The notes beneath the pieces are model-generated. The model did no database searches. It saw only the letters and a list, made by a program, of their open reading frames with translations, and was not told where the DNA came from. A stretch of 64,000 bases of DNA from Methylococcales bacterium (GTDB lineage Bacteria > Pseudomonadota > Gammaproteobacteria > Methylococcales > Methylomonadaceae), in contig JBEBJQ010000005.1 of assembly GCA_040079795.1 (NCBI GenBank), positions 28,977 through 92,976 of the forward strand. Direction: 5' to 3'. Numbering within the stretch: position 1 is the first letter of the stretch; each line of letters opens with the position of its first letter. The translations under genes were made by a program, and so were the position numbers. Of the stretch, positions 12,177 through 50,400 are shown one piece after another.

Positions 12177-12408
12177 TTATTTAGCAGCTACCGGAATTGC
12201 ATAAAAATAAGTGTTGTCGAAAGGCTTATTGTATTTCAGCATTCCGTGAATGGCATGGAGCAATTTTCGCATTACTGCGAAAACGCTCCCTAAAGGTTTC
12301 TCGCCGATGACCATTAATCAAACCAAATACGATGACGCTATTGAAACCCACATTACTCAGCGGCAGGTGTTGATACAAGCAGTGCAGAGCACCCAGGCAA
12401 ATGCTTTA
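12177..12408 (-). pseudogene. IS110-family (IS1111-like) transposase, C-terminal remnant with a frameshift
   Basis: The minus strand encodes ..LPLSNVGFNSVIVFGLING / GEKPLGSVFAVMRKLLHAIHGMLKYNKPFD-stop. The xMRKLLxxIxxMLK tail is typical of IS110/IS1111 transposases. The remnant is cut off at repeat copy A. Confidence 0.55.
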
Positions 12409-12409
12409 A

Positions 12410-12702
12410 AACCGGAGAGTCGCTCATTTTTGCTAAAGATTTTTTCGGGCATCCTGCTTGAAAAAATCTGCAAAAACTTAACGCGACGGTTTATTTTGCT
12501 GCGCAAGCCCCGATTCGTCCTGCGTCCGCCCGCTCCGACCCGGCAAGGGGATCGTCGCATAGCTCCCACAATGACTTGACGGCTATTCGGGAAGCCTCTG
12601 TATTTCGCCTGTGCTTACGCTTCGGCTCAACACCCGGCCCTGCGCCTATCGGGGACTAAAAATCTTCACTTCTCTACCGCTCCGCTTCCAAGATTTTCAG
12701 CG
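12410..12702 (-). repeat. 293-bp structured repeat, copy A (orientation given relative to copy D)
   Basis: Base-for-base identical, by eye, to 21967-22259. It contains hairpins at 12437-12469 (10-bp stem, 13-nt loop) and 12659-12697 (8-bp stem, 23-nt loop). Confidence 0.9.
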
Positions 12703-12740
12703 ACAGAACAGTAATGCTATTACTGTTGAAATACTCAAGC

Positions 12741-15193: not shown

Positions 15194-15256
15194 ATGATTT
15201 TAACGCGATTATTTTGTGATGTAGATGATTTTTGTCAGGCATTTATTCCGCCGTTG
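15194..15256 (+). pseudogene. N-terminal stub of an IS982-family-like transposase
   Basis: MILTRLFCDVDDFCQAFIPP carries the LFCxVDDFCxxF motif I associate with IS982-type transposases. It breaks off at repeat fragment C. Confidence 0.4.
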
Positions 15257-15522
15257 AAAATCTTCACTTCGCTGTCGCTACGTTTCCAAGATTTTCAGCG
15301 AATGACTATTTGGAGCGGGATGCGCCGATTGCGGATGAAAATTTGTTGCTGGTAATTCAGTCCTTGGCATCCTTGCACCGCGCCCAAGTGTTCGATGGCG
15401 TGGCATTGCTAAAGAAGTTCCCCAACCGCTTTGGCCCACATCATCAGGAAGATGTAGAGCGTATCTGGAGAAATTACACTTTGGTGCCAGATGAGTTAAA
15501 AGGTATTTTTTTACAGGCGTGA
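15232..15522 (+). CDS. hypothetical ORF, probably a gene fragment downstream of repeat fragment C
   Basis: The ORF's 5' part lies inside the repeat fragment, so only ~75 C-terminal codons (ERDAPIADENLLLVIQSLASLHRAQVF...) could be genuine. No family recognised. Confidence 0.25.
   Translation: MSGIYSAVENLHFAVATFPRFSANDYLERDAPIADENLLLVIQSLASLHRAQVFDGVALLKKFPNRFGPHHQEDVERIWRNYTLVPDELKGIFLQA
15257..15300 (-). repeat. structured repeat family, terminal-hairpin fragment (copy C)
   Basis: aaaatctt-23 nt-aagattttcagcg has the same stem and loop length as the hairpin at the 12659-12702 end of copy A. The loop is about 85% similar. Confidence 0.7.
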
Positions 15523-16959: not shown

Positions 16960-17245
16960 CGCTGAAAAACATGGAAACGGAGCGTGAGCGAAGTGATGTT
17001 TTTTAGTCCCCGGTAGGCGAAGGGAAATGCGCCAATCCGACGTGCGCGATAGCGCGCGAGGGAGGCAAGCATTTTATCCCGAAGAGCCGTAGAGTCATTG
17101 TGGTAGCCTTGACGTAGTAGGTGGCGAAGCGTAGTACGTAGTCGAGGCGGACGCAGGACGAAGCGGGGCTAGATTGATTCGCCGCGTGGCGAATCGATTT
17201 TTGTGACAGGGAGGTCCAAAAATCTTCTATGAGGCGCACTGTGGC
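16960..17245 (+). repeat. structured repeat family, diverged full-length copy D
   Basis: It is collinear with the reverse complement of copies A/B. Shared blocks are TTTTAGTCCCCGxTAGGCG, CCCGAAxAGCCGTxxAGTCATTGTGGxAGC and GGCGGACGCAGGACGAAxCGGGGCT. Hairpins at 16965-17003 and 17196-17224 keep their loop lengths with compensatory stem changes. The right boundary is approximate. Confidence 0.8.
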
Positions 17246-17552
17246 GCGCAGAATTATTGAGATAGAGAGATTATCTCATAATCTTGTGACGACAGTATCT
17301 GATCTGACAGACACACTGCATCTTTGCCGGAAAGGCGAGTTTTTACGTTAGTTGAATCATCTGGCTAATCAGGACTTTTTACAGGATTGATTTGCAAGCA
17401 GTTGTCCTTAATTACCCAGAAAGCTAGCCTTGATCTCATATAAACAAATCAGTTGTTTTAGTGTGCATTGCAAACAATTCAGCCGAAGTTAAGCTTGGAA
17501 CAGGATAATCCAAAGCTACCGTTAGTTTGTTTATTTTTTATAGGGAACAGTT

Positions 17553-21966: not shown

Positions 21967-22259
21967 AACCGGAGAGTCGCTCATTTTTGCTAAAGATTTT
22001 TTCGGGCATCCTGCTTGAAAAAATCTGCAAAAACTTAACGCGACGGTTTATTTTGCTGCGCAAGCCCCGATTCGTCCTGCGTCCGCCCGCTCCGACCCGG
22101 CAAGGGGATCGTCGCATAGCTCCCACAATGACTTGACGGCTATTCGGGAAGCCTCTGTATTTCGCCTGTGCTTACGCTTCGGCTCAACACCCGGCCCTGC
22201 GCCTATCGGGGACTAAAAATCTTCACTTCTCTACCGCTCCGCTTCCAAGATTTTCAGCG
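21967..22259 (-). repeat. 293-bp structured repeat, copy B
   Basis: Identical to 12410-12702 but with unrelated flanks. It lies between the convergent genes aspS and cysM. Confidence 0.9.
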
Positions 22260-22283
22260 GCTGTTTCGTTGCTAATTACTGTT

Positions 22284-23174
22284 TTATTGAGAAAACAACC
22301 CAGTCGATAAATAACGGTCGCCGCGATCACAGACAATTGCCACAATGACCGCATTTGAAACTGTTGCTGACAATTTTAAGGCAGCGAACACGCTGCCCCC
22401 TGAAGATACCCCTGCAAAAATACCCTCTTCCCTAGCTAACGCGCGGGTGGTATTTTCGGCTGATTGTTGGTCGACATCGATAATCTGATCAACGCGCGCG
22501 GCCTCATAAATTTTAGGCAGATATTCTTTAGGCCAACGCCGAATACCGGGGATTTTGGAATCGCCTTCAGGTTGCACCCCAACAATCTGAATGGCTGGGT
22601 TCTGCTCCTTCAAAAACTTTGAAGTTCCCATGATGGTACCGGTGGTGCCCATCGAACTGACAAAATGGGTAATTTTACCTTCAGTATCTCGCCAAATTTC
22701 AGGGCCGGTACCTTCATAGTGCGCGCGTGGATTATCGGGGTTGGCAAACTGATCCAGAATGCGTCCGTAACCGTCTTGCTCCATTTTGCGTGCCAAATCA
22801 ATCGCAGCTTCCATACTACCCGCCGCCGGGGTCAAGATGATTTCAGCGCCGTAAGCTTGCATAGAATCGCGACGCTCCGCACTCATATTATCCGGCATGA
22901 TTAAAGTCATTTTATAGCCTTTAATCGCAGCAGCCATCGCCAAGGCAATACCGGTATTACCGCTAGTCGCTTCAATCAGCCTATCACCTGGCTTAATTTC
23001 ACCACGCGCCTCAGCGTGTTTGATCATACTCAAGGCGGGACGGTCTTTAACCGATCCCGCCGGATTATTACCTTCCAGTTTCACTAATATGATATTACCT
23101 GTATCGCCCGGCAATCTTTGTAAACGAACTAACGGGGTATTACCCACGAAATTTTCAACGGTTGGAAAGGTCAT
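22284..23174 (-). CDS. cysM: cysteine synthase B
   Basis: GNTPLVRLQRL...LEGNNPAGSVKDRPALSMI...EATSGNTGIALAM is close to E. coli CysM as I remember it. Confidence 0.88.
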   Translation of the reverse strand: MTFPTVENFVGNTPLVRLQRLPGDTGNIILVKLEGNNPAGSVKDRPALSMIKHAEARGEIKPGDRLIEATSGNTGIALAMAAAIKGYKMTLIMPDNMSAERRDSMQAYGAEIILTPAAGSMEAAIDLARKMEQDGYGRILDQFANPDNPRAHYEGTGPEIWRDTEGKITHFVSSMGTTGTIMGTSKFLKEQNPAIQIVGVQPEGDSKIPGIRRWPKEYLPKIYEAARVDQIIDVDQQSAENTTRALAREEGIFAGVSSGGSVFAALKLSATVSNAVIVAIVCDRGDRYLSTGLFSQ

Positions 23175-41498: not shown

Positions 41499-44400
41499 TT
41501 ATTCATCAGTAACATTGGCAAACATTTGTTCCACTTTATCGTCTTGAGTGTCATAAGCTTCAGCTTGCTTACCCGATTTAAGGGATTTTGACGCTTTATT
41601 AGACTTTACTACAATAGGCAGCGGATCGAAACCTTTTAATAAGGGTATTGAGGGTAATAAGCTGGCTAATAAGGCGCCGCCTCTGAGTATCCAACTGACA
41701 AAACCCGCGGTTAAGGTGACTGTCGAAAAAATCATGACTTCAAGGTTTTCAGTTGTTTGCTCAGTATGGTTTTGTTCTATTGTTTCACGCATTGCCGCTA
41801 ATTTTTGCCAGAGGGCTTGTTCTTCGCTTGCCGTAAAGAGCGTTTCCAAATCAACATTAAACTCATTTTCTTGGTTGTCCATTACATGGCTGAGGGTGAT
41901 GTTCTGGAGCGTTTCCTTGAATGAAATAATTTGCGGTTTTTTTAATGCAAGGGCATCGTCTTCAAGAATGTCTTTGAGGCTATGGCGTGTTGTTGCGGCT
42001 TGGTCATCAAATACAGGGGTGTTTTCAACAACTATATTGGTGTTAATAAGGTTTGCAATAAACTTATCCAAGCTATTGTTGAAGGCCAAAGCGCTAGAGG
42101 AACCATCAGGTTCTGAATGCCCATTCAGTTTAATATTGGTAAAAGCTTGATTTGGTTCTGAATAAGCCGGGTTTTGTGGTAATTGCGTTAATATTAAAAG
42201 CGGGTTGTTTAAATTATTTTCAACTACAGCAGGTTGGATTAAAGTCGCTTGAACGATAGCCGTCGGTTGAGTCGTATTCACGACTGGCAAGCTATTGGGT
42301 GTAGTCGTTTCTTTGATTGGTGTGTTAATGGGTGTATCTGAAACTTCAAAGAGCCTGCTACTGCTCATGACACTTTTAGTAAGGCCCGCTTTGTCAGTAT
42401 AAAAAATTTGGACACTGATTTTACTGCCAATATCTTGGTCAGACAGGACGTAGCTGGAATTCGTAGCATCTATAACCGCTACCCCGTTTCTAAACCATTG
42501 ATAGCCGCTAACATGAATGTTTTCTATGTTGGTAATACCCAAAGTGTCTATGTTGAGTATTTGATTAACTTGCATCGAACCGATAATCACGGGTGCGCTA
42601 ACAGGGATTGTTGGGGTGCCAATAATTATGGCGGTATCCTCACTGCTTTTACTTTCAGGGGTTCCGTGAGCGTCGGTATAACTTGCTACCACGCGAATAA
42701 CGTTGTTCACATCGGATAATCCCAATACATAGCTATTGCCGTTTGCACCTGGAATATCCACCCCGTTGCGTTGCCATTGATAATGAATGGCACCCAACCC
42801 ATCGGCATCGGTTAGGCTGTTACCGGCTATGAGGGTTTGGCCTTGAGACGCAGTACCGGTAATGGTGACTGTCCCGAAAGGCGCATCGTTAATATTGCTG
42901 ACTGGCGCAGTTAATGTGCTATTTACGCTTTCTGGGTTGCCAGAACCATCAATGTAACTGGCTTTTACGCTGATCTGTTGACCAACATCAGCATCTCCTA
43001 AAGTGTAAGTCTTGCCGTTAGCACCATTAATAATGGCGTTGTTACGAAACCATTGATAGCTAAATTCCCCTAAGCCATTGTCGTCGCTAATATCACTGGT
43101 ATCTACAGTGAGCGTACCATCTTCTGTCACGATGCCCATAATCACCGGAAGACCTAACGAGGTATGGTTGCTTGGTGTTTCAAGCAAGTTCTCCACCTTC
43201 ACTGTAAAGTTTAAACTAGCGCTGTTATTTTTACTATCGGTAGCAGTTAGGGTCACTTGGTAGACATTATCAGTATTAGCATCCTGCGGGTTTTCAAAGT
43301 CACGCGCTGCCATGCTGACCACCCCGGTTGCGGGGCTGACGCTGAACAGGCCGGCATCAGCGCCGCTTAAAGTGTACACCACCGTCCCAACCGGGCTGCC
43401 GGTCAAGCTTGGGGTAGGGCTGGTAAAGGCGGTATTTTCATTAATACTGACATTGCTTAAGCCACTTAAGTTTAAGGTAGCACTTTCGGCAATGTTCAAT
43501 ACCTGTACGCTAAAACTTAAGCTGGTGCTGTTATTGTCGCTGTCGGTAACGGTCAGGGTCACTTGATAGCTATTATTGTTGTCGCTATCCTCAGGGTTTT
43601 CAAAGTCACGCGCTGCCATGCTGACCACCCCGGTTGCGGGGCTGACGCTGAACAGGCCGGCATCAGCGCCGCTTAAAGTGTACACCACCGTCCCAACCGG
43701 GCTGCCGGTCAAGCTTGGGGTAGGGCTGGTAAAGGCGGTATTTTCATTAATACTGACATTGCTTAAGCCACTTAAGCTTAAGGCCGCGCTTTCGGCCGTA
43801 TTGTTTATTTGAATGGCAAGCGTTTGGGTCGCCACACCACCATTACCGTCATTTACTTGTATGGTGACATCATAAATGTTGTCATGATTAAAATCACCAG
43901 GAGTTTCGTAATCAGGGGGGGACGTAAAACTGAGTACCCCGGAATTAGGATCAATACTGAATAACCCTTGATCATCGCCGCCATAAAGGCTGTACACCAG
44001 TTTTTGTGCAGGCAGATCGATATCTGTAGCAGTCACAGTAGTTACTATGCCGATGTTTTCCGCCAAACTGATTGAGGCTGTACTTCCTCCACCGTTACTA
44101 ATGATCAATGGTGCATCATTGCTTGCAATAACGGTCAGACCCGCACTATCTGTATGGTGGGAAAACGCGGTACTGCCGCCATTACTGGAGGTGCTGGCAA
44201 AGCTACCATTACTGCCGGTGCTTAAATCCCATGCGCGAAAATCGAGTGCATTAGCCAGTGTTCCATTCCAGTTTGCATCCGGCTGAAAGTAAATGCGGGT
44301 GTTATTATCGGCAGCTAATAAAAGTGCATTGCTGCTGCTGAGAATACCAGTTGGATTCCAGTTGCTGCCATTATCGATTGAATACCACCAGCTACCGTGG

Positions 44401-47400
44401 CTAGTATCAACCGACCGGATTGCTATACCCAATTGTGCACCTGTATCGGGATCAACAACATTGTCGAGTTGCCCGGCTGGTAATGTAAAGTCAACCAAAT
44501 CTTCAACCCGTGTGCCCACTGTACCGACTGGTATACCTGAACCTTCATTCATTGCTGTAAGCACTGGATCCGCTGAAGTATTAAGGATTGGCGCATCATT
44601 CACTGCTGTAATCGAAATGCTACCGGATAATGTGGCGCTTATGCCGCCATCACCGTCTGTCAAATAGCCTTCCAACACGCGGGCAGTCGATGACGGGGCG
44701 TTTGAGGTGTTCTCGTAGGTTACATTTCTGGCTATGTCTTGAACTATCGCCAAACTGGCGTTGCTATTAAACGTTACAACTAAGGGCGTATAACCCGTTA
44801 CCGGTCCGTTAAAGCTTGCCACTACGATGCCGTTATAAAGAATATCGCTGCCGCTAACATCGACCTGATTGGTATGGTGACCTTCATTTCTGACCGTTAA
44901 TCGATCTTCAGGCAAGCCATTTGCAGAAATAGTAATGACCAATTGACCCGTATCAAAATCCGCTGAATCAATATCGGTTATTAGCGCTCCAGAGGCTAAT
45001 AGAAACGGACCATCGTTTTCAGGAACAGTTGGATTACCTGAAACAAAAGTGATGCTCGGCGCATCATTTTGAGGGGTAACTGTAATCGTGACCGTGACTA
45101 CTTGAGACCATAATAAACCGTCACCGGCTATATAGCTGAAGGTATCGGTGCCATTAAAATTAGCGGTTGGCGTATAAACAATATTGCCGCCCGTGGTGAA
45201 GTTAAAGACACTGTAATGGGAAGGGAAGTTAACCAGCGCGGCGGTCAAGGCAGTCCCTTCAATATCCATATCGTTTGCGAGCACACCGGGGGCTGCGATA
45301 GTCAGGGTGCCGTCTTCTGCTACTGTATAGCTGTCTGCTGTTGCTACAGGTGCGTCATTCATTGCACTGATGATAATAGGCGCGCTGTCGCTAGTAGCGG
45401 AATAAGCGGTACTGCCGCCATTTATTGAAGCGTCGGCTAGCGTGCCATTACTACCAAAGCCCTGGTCCCAGGCACGAAAGGTAATGGCATCGCTTATACT
45501 GCCGCTGTAGTTAGCATTTGCTTGAAAATACAAACGGGTAACCGAATCGGCATTTAATAACAGCGCTGACGTATCGCTTACGCTGCCCACCGTATTCCAG
45601 GACGACCCGTTATCTGTGCTATAGAACCAGATACCATTGCTGTTGTTGGCTCCAGTCAAGGCAATGCCTAATCCAGAAAGCGCATCAGCATCTGTGACAT
45701 TGTCTAGTTGTCCGCCTGGCGTTGCAAAATCAACCAATGTCGACACCAGGGTTCCTGCTGCACCGCTGGGTGAGGCATTATCTTCAGCGATTGAGTTTAG
45801 CGCAGGGCTTTTAGACATATCCAGCACAGGCGCATCATTAACTGTTGTGACCGAGATTGCAGAATTATCGGTACCGGTGCTAAATGCTGTAGTGCCGCCA
45901 TTACTGCTGGTGTCAACTTTGGTTCCTTCAGTGCCTGCGGTTTGATCCCAAAAGCGGTAGCTAAGTGAAGCGGATGTGGCAGTTAAGCTGTCCGGTACAA
46001 AGCGCACCCGATCGGTTTCTTTTAACAGTAAAGCGGAATTACTGCTGACTGAACCCACGGCATACCATTGAGCTCCGTTATCCAGGGAGTATTCCCAATA
46101 ACCATTGCCATCGTTAGTTGAAATGAGCGCAATGCCGATTTGATCGGCTGGATCTAAATCTTGATAGGCATTTATGCTAATAAAGCTACCATGACTAATA
46201 AACGATTTAACCGTCTCACCCGCGTTGGACGTTTGATCTTCGGTAATGGCTGTTAAGCTGTAACCTTGCGGCGCAGCCAGAGGCGCGTCATTAATATTGG
46301 TCACCGTGATGCTGGCAGTATCTGTTGCCATACTAAAAGCGCTTGTGCCGCCATTTGCCGAGGCGTTACCCAAGTTCCCGCTTATCCCCACACTCAGATC
46401 CCAGGCGTGGTAGGTAAAACTAACGGTTTCCCCTTGTGCCTGGTCAGGATGGTAACGTATTAAATCAGTTGCGCCGAGCAACCGGGCTGAGCTTTCGCTT
46501 ACCGCCCCGATCCAAGCCCAGTTACTTCCGCCGTCAATGGAATATTCCCAATAGCCGACCGTACCCGTGCTTACATCCGTAATGGCAATACCTTGCAGCG
46601 CGCCGCTATCAACATCACTGATGGAGTTACCCAAGAAGGATGCAACTGTTTGTCCGGGATTAGCAATATTGTCTTCAGTAATGGTTGTTAACGTTGGTGC
46701 TATGGGTGAGAGCACGGGTGCATCATTGACAGACGTAATATTGACAATGCTGCTGCCGTTGCTACTCGCCGGACCGCCAGTGCCTTGTGCGCCACTGTTG
46801 TTGTCATTAATAATCCAGTTAATTTGCACACTGGCTGGTGGTGTACTGCTATTATTGCTGTAGGCAATCTGCTGCATCGCCTGGTTTACCAAGATATTGG
46901 TCGCACTTGCATTGAATGTAAATGTCAAAGTGCCTCCGCTGTTGGTTGTGACAGCACCAATCGTGCTAGCACCCACTACTAAGGCATTGCCTTGGGTCAG
47001 CGTACCCAGAGAGCCGCTGGCGTTGAACACATCCTGCGCGTTCACTCCGTTTGAGCGAGCGAGTGTGAGCGTAGCACCATTAAAGTTGTCCGCTGCCGTT
47101 AATTCTGGATCTGTAATTGTCACATCACTGTCCAGTAAGACTGCTGCACCCCCTTGGGTATAAGTTGGAGTACCATCGAGGTTGCTGAATATCGGCGCAT
47201 TATTGGCAACTCCGGTTCCGGTTAAGTCCACTTCGCCGGTGGCGGTATTGCTGATGCCTCCGTCTCCATCAGTGACCACAACGGAGATTGTGCGTATGCC
47301 TAACGTGGGCGTAACTGAAGTCGTACCGAAGGTGATAGACTGGTAGACTGCCTGCACCTTAGCAACTTGCGCGTTGGCATTGAAGTTCACCGAGAGGAGT

Positions 47401-50400
47401 GTGCCGTTCGAGCCACCGGACCATGTACCTACCGTGACACCATCGACCAACACATTCGAGCCAGATAGAGAGACACCGCCGATTCCGAGTAACAGCAGAA
47501 AGTCTGTGTTTTCGCCAGAGCTTATAGTGGCCGTGAGCGAACCACCGTTGAAGTCGGGACTGTCAGGGTCGGTGAGCGTCACCACGCCCGTGAATGGATT
47601 TGCCCAGTTACTCACCGTCGCGAAGGCAGAGCCACCATCGGTAAGCATAGGTGCGTCATTCACAGCTGTCACCGTGATTGCTGTGCTGGCGGTCTGGCTA
47701 ACAAGCCGCCCCACATTCGGTGCAGACAGTAAAGGTGTCGTTGTCGAAAATGTGTCCGGGCCGGAATAGCTGGCGTTAAGGCCTGCACCACCGGTATCCT
47801 GCGCATAGTGCAGTTCAATGCTGTGCTGGCCAGCAGTGAGTGTTGCGGTGTTTGAACTACTGCCGAACCAAGCTAACAGCACTTGGGTGCCATCGACGAA
47901 CAGGGTGGCCGCATCATCGGCAGCTACCGTGAATGTGTAAGTACCGGCCGTGGTGACATTCAGAATACCAGAGTAGATCACACCAAAAGTGGTGGTGCTG
48001 CCAGTCAAGGTATTAGCAAGGCTGGGCGCACTTAAATTCGTAGCCACACCAGTCATGCCGCCCGTGACCGAAATCAGGTTGGGGTTGGAGCCTGTGGGTG
48101 CGCCGTCCTGGAACCGGTAGTCAAATGTGCCTGCGGCTAAACTGCCGCCGATGCCGGTGTTCAGGCCGTCCGAAGTCACCATTGTGAGTGTAACCGCGCC
48201 ATTTGAGTTGGTCGCACCGGTGTAGGTCGGCTTCGCAGCGCTGGCCAGGTAGGCATTCAAATCGGTCAAGGTACCCGTGAGTATCAACGTTGAAGTGCCC
48301 GATCCGGTCACGTTCACCGCCCCGCCGCTGCTAGCGGATAAGGTTCCGCTACTGACCGTCAACTCGGTGCGTAACGTGCTGCTGCCAGCATCTGGGTCGG
48401 TGATGGAAAGGCCAGCGATGGCTGTCGTGCTGTCTTCGTTGAACGTCAACGTGGCCGGTACAGTGTTTACAGGCAAAATGTTGACCGCTAAAACAGTTAT
48501 GGGGGTAGTATTTGTAGGTGTTAGGGAGCTATCGTTTGCCAAAGCGGCAACTTCACCTGCGGAGAGAACCCGATTATAAATACGTGCGTCGTCAATTTTA
48601 CCGTTAAAATCAAAGGTTGTACCGCCGTTTCCATGCCTACCGATGAAGCTGTCTATCCCCAATGTGTAGTGTATTGAATCGGTAGTCGTTATTGAGCCTA
48701 CTAAAGTGCCATCAAGGTATAGCGCAGTCTTATCGCCGGTATCATCGAAGCTGAAAGCCACATGATGCCAACCAGTCCCGGCTAAAAGAGTGTTGTAAGT
48801 GGTGCCTATCCAGGTGCTACCATTATAAAACCCTCCAATAAGGCCACCGCTCCCATCCAGCCTAATCAATACGTTGTCACCCAGGGAAATTACATCAGCT
48901 CCGCCAGCACTGGCAGTATTGAGGTTGACCCATGCGGACAAGGTTACATTGGTTGGGCTGCCAAAAAAACCGGGGGTTTGGATATAAGCATTACCACCAA
49001 GACTTAAAACATTGCCGCGGGTGGCATCATTGAGCGCGGTAGCGCCATCGACAGTACCAGGGTAAGCCGCCGCTGGACTGCTGTCTGTTCCTAATGCGCT
49101 GGTGTTTTCGAAGGCATAACGTCCTTTCAGGCTTGTATCGATATTCAGGCTATACAAGGTAGAATCGAGCGTACTCAAGGTCAGAGTTGCAATACCATTA
49201 AAATTGTTGGTAGGTGTAAAATCCAATCCATTCAGAGCATTATTCAGGTCGGAGACTGTCCCGCTAAAAGTCATGGTACTGTCAGCAGCCCCACTGCCGC
49301 TGGTGAAGGATAAGCCGCTAACGCTAGCCAGCGCCAGTGTTCCGTTGCTAACAGAGAGGGTGACCTCTAAGGGGCTGCTTCCGGCATTAGCGTCATTTAC
49401 CGATAGTTGATTACCATTTGCAGACGAAAAAATGAGCGATGAGTTATAACTGGTAGTCTGGGCACCGGGTGTCGTATTACTTGGTGTGCTATTGCTAGCC
49501 ATTGCCGATAGGGATATATTCCGTGTTGCAATAGAACTATTAGCTAAGCCATCGTTAACGAAAAATGATAGGGTGCGTGTCGCCAAACTGGGATTGCTGG
49601 AAGAATTGAAATATGCAATGCTACGTAACGCACTCTGGTAATTGGCCACCGTGGCGCTGCCACTGAGCGTCAATACCCCGGTGCTGGCATTCCAACTGCC
49701 AGTAATACCATTTTGATTGGTAAAAGCCAGTGTGTCTTGACCGTTAACATAGCCTGAAGAAATTGACACAGTAGCACTAGCCATATGGGTGCTGTCTACA
49801 TCGCTTAGAGTAAGTGCATTATCGACTGCCGTAGCCGGGTCGTTATGTGTATAACCCATTGCACTGCCGGTGGTGCTGACGATGGGAGTATCGTTGACCG
49901 CCGTGATGGTGATATTTACGGGCGCCTGTGGCGAGTTTGACGCCAAACTTGCGACTTCGGAAACATCGAGCGCACGGTTGTAAAGCACAACTCCATCAAT
50001 TTCTCCATTGGCATTCAGAAATCGCGTCGGATCGAGATCTGATCGCGCACCGAGGTATACATTACCTACTGGATCAATGCTGTCACTGCCCGTGGCTAAT
50101 GAACCTAGCAGCCCTCCATCCACATAGACTTGCGTACCGATCCCGGCTGTTACGGTCATTGTGTAAAGATGCCATTGTCCGTCGCCGATGAGGGTGCTGA
50201 CATCCGTATAAATCTGTCCACTGGTGTCATTGGAATCCCACACTGTGGTGACCAGATTATTTACTGGGGTGGAACCAATGTAACTGGATTCAGTAAGAGC
50301 CACCTGGATGGTATTGGGAGAATTCGGAATAGCGCCGTGGCTGTATAAATATTGCAACCCTGTGCCGCTGTTATCATCTACTTTGAAATATAACGCCAGT

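What the first reader, a model, noticed from the sequence alone, without database searches (positions are those of the whole stretch)
12410..12702. A 293-bp element present in two 100% identical copies at unrelated loci, without terminal inverted repeats or target duplications
Seen: 12410-12702 equals 21967-22259 base for base, and the flanks share nothing. One copy abuts a decayed IS110-type transposase gene. The other sits between the aspS terminator hairpin and the cysM stop. The ends (aaccggagag... / ...ttttcagcg) are not inverted repeats of each other, and I see no direct duplication of flanking bases. Each end has a subterminal A/T-rich hairpin (10-bp stem with a 13-nt loop; 8-bp stem with a 23-nt loop). 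The 64-70-aa ORFs predicted inside are not conserved in the diverged copy D, so the element is probably non-coding. Inference: perfect identity at two loci implies recent mobility or gene conversion. The absence of TIRs and TSDs together with subterminal hairpins is the pattern of single-strand (IS200/IS605-type) transposons and their non-autonomous PATE derivatives, but I see no matching transposase in the window.
Basis: partly seen in the sequence, partly recalled or inferred. Interest (0 to 1): 0.65.

Follow-up and report, generated by a model that had tools for sequence, protein, structure and literature searches.

The report
Small structured gene-less mobile element
The two identical 293-bp copies belong to an unannotated family of small, protein-less, hairpin-rich jumping DNA elements of methane-oxidising bacteria and Rickettsiella; they insert precisely into new sites, even inside genes, without the usual transposon hallmarks, and the enzyme that moves them has not been found.

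Summary
Window 12410-12702 equals 21967-22259 base for base, and the flanks are unrelated. The window also holds a diverged copy (16960-17249, minus strand) and a solo right end (15257-15300).

This is not a local duplication. Relatives of 240-313 nt occur in Methylococcaceae MAGs, four methanotroph plasmids, a Rickettsiella MAG and metagenomes. They fall into at least five subfamilies.

One Methylomonas plasmid carries about nine copies of one subfamily (six of them intact) and eight identical copies of another. One copy interrupts cas7f. Removing it restores a gapless Csy3 alignment, so insertion is precise, with no duplication or loss.

There are no terminal inverted repeats, no conserved ORF and no Rfam match. 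Every helix is kept across subfamilies by compensatory changes.

Insertion sites share a single base: G at +4 of the right flank in 29 of 31 sites. The element's own first four bases are also NNNG. Read on the complementary strand, target and element end both read C-N-N-N before the cut. This is the layout of HUH single-strand transposons (IS91, IS200/IS605).

The best reading is therefore a non-autonomous HUH-type element moved in trans. No partner transposase was found. The IS200/IS605 TAM criterion fails, and the wholly structured body remains unexplained.

The parts
12410..12702 (+). The likely true limits are 12412-12702 (291 nt).
   Evidence: It is 100% identical to copy B. The family profile aligns to 12413-12702 with E 2.7e-63. 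In all subfamilies the left end has the form NNNG-N-GAGT.
21967..22259 (+). Copy B, between the aspS terminator and the cysM stop. The likely true limits are 21969-22259.
   Evidence: The contigs of an independent Logan assembly (L001, L005) break inside this copy, as expected for a multi-copy repeat.
16960..17249 (-). Copy D, a diverged subfamily. It is about 65-70% identical to A and 90% identical to copies in other Methylococcaceae.
   Evidence: 90% identity to L002 over 290 nt; E 8.8e-65.
15257..15300 (+). Copy C, a solo right-end module: the last 44 nt only (hairpin plus CAGCG).
   Evidence: The same hairpin is included in alignment A5.
12417..12487 (.). Left-end hairpin domain of copy A. 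P1 pairs GTCGC (12419-12423, within the GAGTCGC block at 12417-12423) with GCGAC (12483-12487). P1 encloses P2, which pairs TTTTTGC-(TAA)-AGATTTTTTC (12427-12446) with GAAAAAATCT-GCAAAAA (12460-12476). The same domain is at 21974-22044 in copy B.
   Evidence: MFE folds. P1 occurs in three sequence versions and P2 in seven across subfamilies.
12507..12530 (.). Conserved unpaired core block GCCCCGATTCGTCCTGCGTCCGCC. Its 23-nt part CCCCGNTTCGTCCTGCGTCCGCC recurs exactly in the window's A and D copies, the L002/L003 copies, one of the two Rickettsiella copies and the metagenome copies.
   Evidence: It served as the search pattern. See the alignments.
12536..12554 (.). P3 hairpin (CGACCC / GGG-GA-TCG). 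A hairpin sits at this position in every subfamily, each with a different sequence.
   Evidence: Per-sequence folds of segment S2 and alignment.
12565..12583 (.). Second conserved block, CCCACAATGACTTGACGGC.
12656..12702 (.). Right-end module. The hairpin pairs CTAAAAATCTT (12656-12666) with AAGATTTTCAG (12690-12700); its 23-nt loop is conserved. The terminal bases are CAGCG (12698-12702). The same module is at 22213-22259 in copy B.
   Evidence: Covariation test: 89% of cells paired, 8 of 11 pairs changed on both sides, and 0 of 500 shuffles reached the observed values.
12703..12706 (.). Target bases to the right of copy A (ACAG), with the conserved G at +4. The equivalent for copy B is 22260-22263 (GCTG).
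   Evidence: G at +4 in 29 of 31 independent insertion sites, P about 1e-15.
12180..12305 (-). Context only: the C-terminal remnant of an IS110-family transposase, abutting copy A.
15194..15256 (+). Context only: a 21-codon N-terminal fragment resembling IS982-family transposases, abutting copy C.
   Evidence: The matches are weak (E 0.06) but lie under IS982 family transposase annotations.

Best explanation
The 293-bp repeat is a member of a family of non-autonomous, protein-less insertion elements.

**Proposed mechanism**
- The elements are moved in trans by a single-strand (HUH-type) transposase, in the manner of IS91 or IS200/IS605.
- On that strand the enzyme would cut after a C-N-N-N tetranucleotide in the target.
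This end would act as the origin-like end.
- It would finish at the long P1/P2 hairpin, 5 nt before the element's own terminal C-N-N-N (CCGG in the window copies; CTTG, CTTT or CCTG elsewhere). This end would act as the terminus-like end.
- Nothing is duplicated or lost at the target.

**Shown**
- The family is mobile and inserts precisely.
- It has no TIR, no TSD and no ORF.
- Its hairpins covary.
- There is a one-base target preference, and the element's own end mirrors it.

**Inferred**
- The HUH enzyme, the active strand, and the assignment of origin-like and terminus-like ends.

**Not explained**
- Why the whole interior is a conserved set of helices with conserved unpaired blocks.
For: **Mobility**
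- Copies A and B are identical and sit in unrelated flanks.
- Methylomonas plasmid CP157006 carries six intact, (near-)identical 282-nt copies, two more split by an intron, and eight identical 255-nt copies of a second subfamily. All have different flanks.

**Precise insertion without TSD**
- The copy at 147252-147533 of that plasmid lies inside cas7f. The joined flanks align without a gap to solved Csy3 structures (E 2e-76; 'iygsvttlgkafr' against 'pygsvtsqgkayr').
- The copy at 172162-172443 lies inside a 288-aa ORF that is restored in frame when the element is removed.

**No coding capacity or known RNA**
- There are no TIRs and no ORF conserved across subfamilies.
- No Rfam family matches any subfamily.

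**Subterminal hairpins at both ends, kept by compensatory change**
- Right-end hairpin: 8 of 11 pairs changed on both sides, 0 of 500 shuffles.
- P1 and P2 occur in three and seven sequence versions.

**Target**
- G at +4 of the right flank in 29 of 31 sites (P 9e-16).
- The left flank is A/T-rich.
- The element's own first four bases are NNNG in every subfamily. On the complement, target and element end are therefore both C-N-N-N before the cut.

**Published parallels with the IS91 family**
- PMC13181058 describes no TIR, two distinct ends with subterminal palindromes, no TSD, a target tetranucleotide next to oriIS, a related tetranucleotide at the terIS cleavage site, single-stranded circles, and a mini-IS of 89 + 82 bp mobilised in trans.
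- IS801 yields 229-679-nt miniatures that keep one end (PMC3189936).
- Here, the 4-5 truly truncated copies all keep the same right end.

**Active strand**
- Segments S2-S4 fold with better z-scores on the complement.
- Group II introns sit in the element only on the complement.
Against: **No partner enzyme**
- No HUH transposase with matching ends was found anywhere.
- The window encodes only housekeeping genes.
- The IS605 (tnpA + tnpB) on the Methylomonas plasmid has unrelated ends, and so, as far as its visible ends were inspected, does the tnpB element beside the L025 copy. The ends of the IS200 on L027 were not compared.
- I had no IS91-type query, and the Pfam summary of the plasmid listed only the top 25 of 115 families.

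**Target specificity looser than in known HUH elements**
- Only one fixed base is conserved.
- IS91 needs T at position 2 and mostly CTTG or GTTC.
- IS200/IS605 need a full 4-5-nt TAM read by base pairing.

**Geometry**
- The cut sites lie only 2 and 5 nt from the hairpins. This is unlike IS608, by my recollection of the literature.

**Unexplained conservation**
- A non-autonomous HUH element needs only its ends. Here the interior helices and two unpaired blocks are conserved from Methylococcaceae to Rickettsiella, while the right-end module differs in Rickettsiella. This suggests an additional, possibly RNA-level, function.

**Weak or mixed strand evidence**
- GC skew gave no replication-strand test.
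- The bias among truncated copies rests on only 4-5 cases.
Confidence: 0.45

Rival explanations
1. A strict IS200/IS605 PATE: a deletion derivative whose LE and RE hairpins are bound by a Y1 TnpA. It would be excised and inserted as single-stranded DNA 3' of a TAM.
For: - There are no TIRs and no TSDs, there are subterminal hairpins, and insertion is precise.
- Y1 tnpA or tnpB genes occur on three of the four plasmids that carry the element.
- In the window's A-type, the two end hairpins share the motif AAGATTTT.
Against: - Identical copies have no common 4-5-nt motif next to either end. Only one base is fixed.
- In the other subfamilies the two end hairpins are unrelated to each other.
- The IS605/tnpB ends compared on the Methylomonas and Methylobacter plasmids are unrelated to the element; the IS200 ends on the Methyloprofundus plasmid were not compared.
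- The hairpins sit 2-5 nt from the cut sites, not about 10-20 nt.
Confidence: 0.12
2. An RNA-mediated (retro)element. The element is transcribed into a structured RNA that a reverse transcriptase copies into new sites, starting from the RNA's 3' end. The RT could be that of the resident group II introns or another one. This would be a bacterial SINE-like parasite.
For: - The whole element is a conserved fold with conserved unpaired blocks.
- The right-end module is the best-conserved part between the A and D subfamilies (84-90% against about 65-70%).
- All 4-5 truncated copies keep that end.
- Insertion without TSD also occurs in group II intron retrotransposition (established knowledge).
- Group II introns with an RT live inside copies of the element.
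Against: - There is no promoter or terminator inside the element.
- It has no ribozyme features and no Rfam match.
- The strand favoured by the wobble-pair evidence and by intron orientation is the complement. On that strand the retained end is the 5' end, the wrong polarity for priming at the 3' end.
- No non-intron TPRT-like system is known in bacteria.
- The mirrored NNNG at the element's end and in the target is more naturally a nuclease signature.
Confidence: 0.13
3. The RNA component of an RNA-guided recombinase or nuclease system carried as a stand-alone mobile unit. Candidates are an IS110-type bridge RNA and a TnpB or IscB omega-RNA.
For: - The size (240-313 nt) and the pattern of conserved blocks plus covarying helices resemble such RNAs.
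- In the window, the complement of copy A lies directly upstream of an IS110 transposase remnant and in the same orientation.
- On the Methylobacter plasmid, a tnpB gene starts 70 nt after the element.
Against: - Seven copies of one subfamily (identical apart from a 1-nt deletion in one) and eight identical copies of another sit at sites with no shared sequence. A fixed guide or bridge loop cannot be choosing the target.
- Copy B and about 30 other copies have no such gene nearby.
- The tnpB next to L025 has its own canonical right-end hairpin at its stop codon.
- The IS110 gene is only a 42-aa remnant.
- No Rfam match, including to HEARO.
Confidence: 0.07
4. Mobilised by a site-specific tyrosine or serine recombinase acting on folded or double-stranded ends, as with integron attC sites, IS607 or Tn554. 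The resident recombinases of the plasmids might do this.
For: - Insertion is TSD-less, and the ends are folded with a conserved mismatch.
- The Methylomonas plasmid encodes eight Phage_integrase proteins.
Against: - No dinucleotide or core sequence is repeated at both junctions, as a serine recombinase or an integron-type crossover would leave.
- No extra 'coupling' bases remain in cas7f.
- Most of the integrases belong to three copies of a three-gene module, and none is next to a copy of the element.
Confidence: 0.06
5. Not a transposon at all. It would be a structured small-RNA gene, for example a GGA-rich protein sponge on the complementary strand, spread and homogenised by recombination or gene conversion.
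For: - The fold is conserved.
- By my own reading of the sequences, the complement carries many GGA motifs, some of them in loops. This was not tested statistically.
Against: - Insertions lie inside cas7f and other ORFs.
- One 289-kb plasmid holds 16 or more copies with sharp common boundaries and unrelated flanks.
- No promoter or terminator travels with the unit.
- The GGA in the P2 loop is not conserved in the Rickettsiella copies.
Confidence: 0.03

Closest known systems
IS91 family (IS91, IS801, IS1294; HUH Y2 rolling-circle transposons), including mini-IS91 and the right-end 'miniature sequences' of IS801
   Same: - No terminal inverted repeats and no target duplication.
- Two different ends, each with a subterminal palindrome.
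- A short target signal that flanks only one end.
- The other end terminates in a related tetranucleotide.
- Short derivatives made only of end sequences can be moved in trans.
- Truncated derivatives keep the origin end.
- Sources: PMC13181058 and PMC3189936. Element data.
   Different: - The target signal here is a single fixed base (C at -4 on the complement). IS91-family targets are CTTG, GTTC or GTCC, with an invariant T at position 2.
- No Y2 transposase with these ends was found.
- The end sequences were not compared with IS91-family ends, because no ISfinder copy was available.
- The whole 240-313-nt body is a conserved fold, which mini-IS91 does not need.
IS200/IS605 family and its PATEs (palindrome-associated transposable elements)
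   Same: No TIR, no TSD, subterminal hairpins, precise insertion, small non-coding derivatives, and the same cut-after-a-short-motif logic at one flank and at the opposite end.
   Different: - There is no TAM shared by identical copies.
- The two end hairpins are not alike in most subfamilies.
- The hairpins lie 2-5 nt from the cut sites.
- The resident IS605/tnpB elements whose ends were compared (CP157006, L025) have unrelated ends.
IS110 family with its bridge (seek) RNA
   Same: A TIR-less, TSD-less element that carries a structured non-coding RNA of similar size. An IS110 remnant lies next to copy A, downstream of the element's complement.
   Different: IS110 elements insert at one sequence specified by the RNA. 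Here identical copies sit at unrelated sites. No recombinase gene accompanies about 30 other copies.
MITEs and Rickettsia palindromic elements (RPEs)
   Same: Small, multi-copy and non-autonomous. They occur in intergenic regions and sometimes within ORFs. The Rickettsiella subfamily is stop-free in one frame and lies in frame inside a 578-aa ORF, as RPEs do.
   Different: MITEs are defined by TIRs and TSDs, and both are absent here.
Stand-alone HEARO/omega-RNA loci of IscB and TnpB systems
   Same: Large structured RNAs that are multi-copy, are often found without the protein gene, and belong to HUH-type transposons.
   Different: No Rfam HEARO or other match at E up to 1. No TAM. No nuclease gene with this RNA was found.

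Membership tests
IS200/IS605 PATE | No terminal inverted repeats and no target-site duplication | tested here: met
   The ends are not inverted repeats. The cas7f insertion restores a gapless Csy3 alignment. Thirty-one flanks show no direct repeat.
IS200/IS605 PATE | Subterminal hairpins at both ends | tested here: met
   The right-end hairpin covaries. The left-end P1/P2 hairpin is present in all subfamilies with different sequences.
IS200/IS605 PATE | A conserved 4-5-nt target-adjacent motif (TAM) abutting one end in all copies that share the same ends | tested here: not met
   Seven near-identical (AM2-type) and eight identical (E-type) copies have different bases at every flank position, except G at +4 of the right flank.
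IS200/IS605 PATE | LE and RE hairpins similar to each other (bound by one TnpA dimer) | tested here: not met
   They share a motif only in the window's A-type and partly in the D-type. They are unrelated in the AM2 and E subfamilies.
IS200/IS605 PATE | A full-length element with the same ends that encodes a Y1 TnpA | tested here: inconclusive
   The IS605 on CP157006 and the tnpB element on L025 have unrelated ends; the ends of the IS200 on L027 were not examined. Host chromosomes could not be searched.
IS91 family (non-autonomous derivative) | Two functionally distinct ends with subterminal palindromes, no TIR, no TSD | tested here: met
   Family definition from PMC13181058.
IS91 family (non-autonomous derivative) | Target tetranucleotide (CTTG, GTTC or GTCC; T at position 2) next to the origin end | tested here: not met
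   On the complement the four flank bases are C-N-N-N (C in 29 of 31). Position 2 is not fixed.
IS91 family (non-autonomous derivative) | Terminus end cleaved after a tetranucleotide related to the target | tested here: met
   On the complement the element ends in CTTG, CTTT, CCTG or CCGG. These are C-N-N-N, like the target.
IS91 family (non-autonomous derivative) | A Y2 HUH transposase gene between the same ends somewhere in the host | not tested
   No IS91-type query or complete host genome was available. The Pfam summary of CP157006 was truncated to 25 of 115 families.
IS110 family / bridge RNA | Copies with the same RNA insert at one specific target sequence of about 11-14 nt | tested here: not met
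   The flanks of identical copies are unrelated.
IS110 family / bridge RNA | A DEDD recombinase gene adjacent to the RNA within the element | tested here: not met
   Only a 42-aa remnant lies beside copy A. None lies beside copy B or the other loci.
MITE | Terminal inverted repeats and target-site duplication | tested here: not met
Any Rfam 15 family (incl. HEARO, group I/II introns, Csr/Rsm sRNAs) | Covariance-model match | tested here: not met
   No match at the gathering score or at E up to 1 for the A, D and E types, and none at E up to 0.1 for the R, L025, L026 and L027 types. Only the inserted group II intron matches.

The most novel reading that the evidence does not exclude
The conserved fold may not be passive cargo. 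It could be a functional RNA, or folded single strand, that takes part in the element's own movement or maintenance together with an enzyme class not yet linked to such RNAs. Possible roles are as a cofactor, a primer or template, or a single-strand-origin-like structure. On this reading the family would be a new class of RNA-centred, TIR-less, TSD-less transposon with almost no target requirement, shared between Methylococcales and Legionellales.
Probability: 0.2. Interest if true: 0.85.

Novelty: new variant of a known kind. Interest (0 to 1): 0.6.

Why it matters
- **Annotation gap.** The family is active. It has identical copies, 16 or more on one plasmid, and it knocks out cas7f of a type I-F CRISPR system and other genes. 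Yet it is unannotated in RefSeq plasmids, absent from Rfam, and it breaks MAG assemblies. Simply recognising it would improve annotation of methanotroph and Legionellales genomes.
- **Mechanism.** It shows an unusually relaxed target rule: one base, mirrored in the element's own end. It also has a fully structured interior conserved across two orders of Gammaproteobacteria.
- **If the partner is an HUH enzyme.** The element defines a new, very promiscuous branch of single-strand transposition, with compact end sequences.
- **If the partner is not an HUH enzyme.** The element points to a new way of moving small structured DNA or RNA.
- **Intron host.** It is a natural landing site for group II introns.

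Tried and rejected
**Searches that found nothing**
- Rfam at gathering and permissive thresholds on all subfamilies gave nothing.
- blastn against phages and E. coli genomes gave nothing.
- IMG/VR scans gave one contig-end copy. Seven further matches to a degenerate pattern were chance hits in high-GC phages.
- Three literature searches found no prior description.

**Empty site for copy B**
- The closest relative with cysM-aspS synteny (L020, CysM 96% identical) has an unrelated 233-bp spacer, so no clean empty site was obtained.
- Other cysM homologues lack the synteny.

**Recruiting more copies through spurious ORFs**
- A protein search with the 78-aa ORF of copy D returned only two proteins.

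**Partner enzyme**
- tblastn with Y1 TnpA, TnpB and the IS110 fragment was run against all held DNA.
- The IS605 ends were inspected.
- A Pfam summary was made of 97 plasmid ORFs.
- ORFs next to each copy were listed.
- Multi-copy ORFs were clustered.
- The three-gene recombinase modules were examined.
- No candidate had matching ends.

**Replication-strand bias**
- GC skew of the plasmid and of the window gave no origin or terminus.

**Whole-element structure**
- RNAalifold on a MAFFT alignment failed, because the helices shift between subfamilies. I used per-segment folds and the length-invariant right-end module instead.

**Hypotheses dropped or corrected**
- Csr/Rsm-sponge idea: dropped, because the loop GGA is not conserved and the element inserts into genes.
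- The claim that all fragments are 5'-truncated: I first counted L026 and L027. Reading them showed they are diverged full-length copies, so only 4-5 cases remain.
- The sigma-70 promoter and terminator scan found nothing inside the element.
Full report
**1. The observation**

Window 12410-12702 and 21967-22259 are identical over 293 nt. The neighbouring bases differ.

- To the left of copy A, on the minus strand, lies the last 42 aa of an IS110-family transposase. tblastn places it under an annotated IS110 family transposase (E 4e-7).
- Copy B lies between aspS with its terminator-like hairpin and the stop codon of cysM.
- The two A/T-rich hairpins have the stated stems and loops.
- There are no terminal inverted repeats and no flanking direct repeats.

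The window holds two more pieces: a diverged copy on the minus strand (16960-17249) and a solo right end of 44 nt (15257-15300). The solo end abuts a 21-codon fragment resembling IS982 transposases.

By protein similarity the host is a Methylococcaceae. Its CysM is 96% identical to that of a Methylococcaceae MAG and 88% to Methylobacter. The window otherwise carries housekeeping genes only, including dprA, fmt, rsmB, hom, aspS, cysM, dnaE, bamA and htpG. It has no transposase, reverse transcriptase or HUH gene.

**2. A widespread family, not a local duplication**

A pattern built from two blocks shared by copies A and D found copies in three genome records: a Methylococcaceae MAG, a contig binned as Dormibacteraeota, and a Rickettsiella MAG. 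A one-block pattern found 14 metagenome contigs. blastn found copies on four methanotroph plasmids, from Methylobacter YRD-M1, Methylomonas AM2-LC, Methylomonas UP202 and Methyloprofundus.

Nothing matched in phages, E. coli genomes or Rfam. IMG/VR gave a single contig-end copy.

The copies fall into at least five subfamilies of 240-313 nt:

- the window's A-type, to which the Methylobacter (L025) and Methylomonas AM2 copies are related at 71-74% identity;
- the D-type;
- a Rickettsiella 'R-type';
- a 255-nt 'E-type';
- the variants on L026 and L027.

Many copies sit at contig ends. An independent assembly of the window's organism breaks inside copy B. Both are expected for a multi-copy repeat.

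**3. It is mobile and inserts precisely**

Methylomonas plasmid CP157006 carries:

- six intact, (near-)identical 282-nt copies;
- two more copies split by an intron;
- one diverged copy;
- eight identical E-type copies.

All have unrelated flanks.

The copy at 147252-147533 lies inside cas7f. With the element removed, the flanks give an ORF that aligns without a gap across the junction to solved Csy3 structures (E 2e-76). Insertion therefore neither duplicates nor deletes target bases.

Another copy interrupts a 288-aa ORF in the same way. A Rickettsiella copy lies in frame inside a 578-aa ORF. The perfect identity of window copies A and B is thus best read as recent transposition.

**4. Anatomy**

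No ORF is conserved across subfamilies. No sigma-70 promoter or intrinsic terminator lies inside the element.

- a terminal NNNG-N-GAGT;
- a long hairpin domain, in which P1 encloses P2;
- an unpaired block, GCCCCGATTCGTCCTGCGTCCGCC;
- hairpin P3;
- a second block, CCACAATGACTYKACGGC;
- a further hairpin domain;
- the block CGCCTAYCGGGGAC;
- a right-end hairpin with a conserved 23-nt loop;
- the terminal CAGCG.

The helices are kept with different sequences in different subfamilies.

- P1 occurs as GAGTCGC/GCGAC, GAGTGCCGG/CCGGCAC and GAGTGACGG/CCGTCAC.
- P2 occurs in seven versions: AGATTTTTTC/GAAAAAATCT, GCTTGTT..GGGGC/GCCCC..AACAAGC, AAATTTTGG/CCAAAATTT, GATTTTTGG/CCAAAATC, GATTTTAG/CTAAAATC, GATTTT/AAAATC and GAATTCAGG/CCTGAATTC.

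For the right-end hairpin, which aligns without indels, a formal count gave:

- 89% of cells paired;
- 8 of 11 pairs changed on both sides;
- 0 of 500 shuffles reaching the observed values;
- a clear peak against slid partners.

The D-type replaces the enclosing P1 with two local hairpins. The Rickettsiella type has a different right-end module.

**5. Which strand**

For the complement:

- Segments S2-S4 have better folding z-scores on the complement.
- Group II introns, confirmed by Rfam, sit in the element only on the complement. Two AM2-type copies carry one at the same position, and a D-type copy in L019 carries one at another position.

**6. Target sites**

Across 31 independent insertions from five subfamilies, the only strongly conserved base is G at +4 of the right flank (29 of 31, P about 1e-15). 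There is a weaker preference for a purine at +1 (24 of 31) and A at +2, and the left flank is A/T-rich. The cas7f case shows that these bases belong to the target.

The element's own first four bases are also NNNG in every subfamily: CCGG, CAAG, CAGG and AAAG. In D-type copies the four bases before CGCGCC are TAGG, CTTG or TCTG.

On the complementary strand this reads C-N-N-N, then the cut, both in the target next to one end and at the element's other end. One consequence is that the window element is probably 291 nt. The shared AA at 12410-12411 and 21967-21968 would then be flank.

**7. Mechanism**

Precise, TSD-less, TIR-less insertion with subterminal hairpins is the layout of HUH single-strand transposons. 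So is a short signal next to one end that is mirrored at the opposite end.

The IS91 family is described in just these terms (PMC13181058):

- distinct oriIS and terIS ends with palindromes;
- no TSD;
- a target tetranucleotide next to oriIS;
- a related tetranucleotide at the terIS cut;
- single-stranded circles;
- a mini-IS made of 89 + 82 bp of end sequence that is mobilised in trans.

IS801 produces 229-679-nt miniatures that keep the origin end (PMC3189936). In the present family, the 4-5 truly truncated copies all keep the right end: window C, L017a, L017b/L006b and L018b. This sample is small.

I therefore favour an HUH-type enzyme acting in trans, with confidence about 0.45. I do not file the element as a member of either IS91 or IS200/IS605:

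- The IS200/IS605 TAM criterion and the like-hairpins criterion fail.
- The IS91 tetranucleotide rule (T at position 2) fails.
- No transposase with matching ends was found.
- The IS605/tnpB elements compared on two of the plasmids have unrelated ends.

Bridge-RNA or guide-RNA targeting is excluded by the unrelated sites of identical copies. Serine-recombinase or integron-type crossover is unlikely, because no shared crossover bases occur at the two junctions.

An RNA-mediated route remains possible. It would account for the conserved fold, but it has the wrong polarity if the complement is the functional strand.

**8. What remains unexplained**

The interior of the element is conserved in both fold and sequence from Methylococcaceae to Rickettsiella, while the ends are partly exchanged. 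This is more than a non-autonomous HUH element should need. It is the main reason for keeping a novel, RNA-centred reading at about 0.2.

**9. Verdict**

Single-strand-type, non-autonomous and non-coding are supported; an IS200/IS605 PATE is not demonstrated; the IS110 neighbour is incidental.
- The family appears undescribed. It has no Rfam entry, no annotation in the records examined, and was not found in the literature searches.
- It is best called a new variant of a known kind.

Noticed in passing
L030/L031 (CP157006 148533-150842; 159513-161600 and 164356-164610); L019 about 1345-1443: A group II intron interrupts two copies of the element at the same internal position (nt 184). Its RT is 444 aa, and Rfam matches group-II-D1D4-3 and Intron_gpII. 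A related intron end interrupts a D-type copy at a different position. The element seems to be a preferred landing site for these introns.
   Followed up: partly
L004 470-2206 (-), element at 1285-1530: The Rickettsiella subfamily (240/246 nt, a multiple of 3) has no stop codon in one complementary-strand frame. One copy lies in frame inside a 578-aa ORF with an HPD (J-domain-like) motif. This resembles the Rickettsia palindromic elements that become part of proteins.
   Followed up: partly
L030 43251-48283 (CP157006 143251-148283): A plasmid-borne type I-F CRISPR-Cas operon (Csy1, Csy2 and Csy3 Pfam hits) has its cas7f/csy3 gene split by a copy of the element. The system is probably inactivated.
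   Followed up: partly
L030 27818-28072 and seven other places on CP157006: A second subfamily of 255 nt ('E-type') is present in eight identical copies on the same plasmid. It was detected only by a profile search (E about 2.5e-5), which shows that blastn undercounts the family.
   Followed up: yes
L028 14875-18134; L032 38721-41987; L033 17900-20919: Three copies of a three-gene module account for most of the eight Phage_integrase hits on the plasmid. They look like 'recombinase in trio' elements. No link to the element was seen.
   Followed up: partly
window 12703-12735 and 22260-22290: The right flanks of copies A and B share TGCTA(A)TTACTGTT 14-18 nt from the element. In A this is one arm of a 9-bp hairpin (AACAGTAAT/ATTACTGTT). 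In B part of it is native sequence also present in a relative that lacks the element (L020). This could be chance or a structural target preference.
   Followed up: no
window 12180-12305 (-) and 15194-15256 (+): Two transposase remnants directly abut element copies: an IS110 C-terminus and an IS982-like N-terminus. The rest of each IS is missing. This suggests deletions next to the element, or insertion into other mobile DNA followed by decay.
   Followed up: partly
window 43188-43793: A 300-nt direct tandem duplication (88% identity, spacing 306) lies inside the 3388-aa ORF at 41499-51665 (-). It is probably a repeat domain of a giant secreted or adhesin-like protein.
   Followed up: no
L011 and L014; L018 2-221: L011 and L014 share the element and its right flank but have different left flanks. 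This points to recombination between copies or an assembly chimera. L018 has a second, diverged copy of the last 52 nt or so directly after a complete Rickettsiella-type element.
   Followed up: no
L025 6283-7475: On the Methylobacter plasmid, a tnpB-only IS begins immediately after the element's right end. It has OrfB_IS605 and Cas12f-like TNB domains, and its own right-end hairpin is at the stop codon. Its insertion next to CAGCG may be coincidental or may reflect its TAM.
   Followed up: partly
L002 2885-3057: A sub-threshold Rfam hit (AaHKsRNA41, 32.9 bits against a gathering score of 97) lies just upstream of the D-type copy. It is probably another repeat or chance.
   Followed up: no
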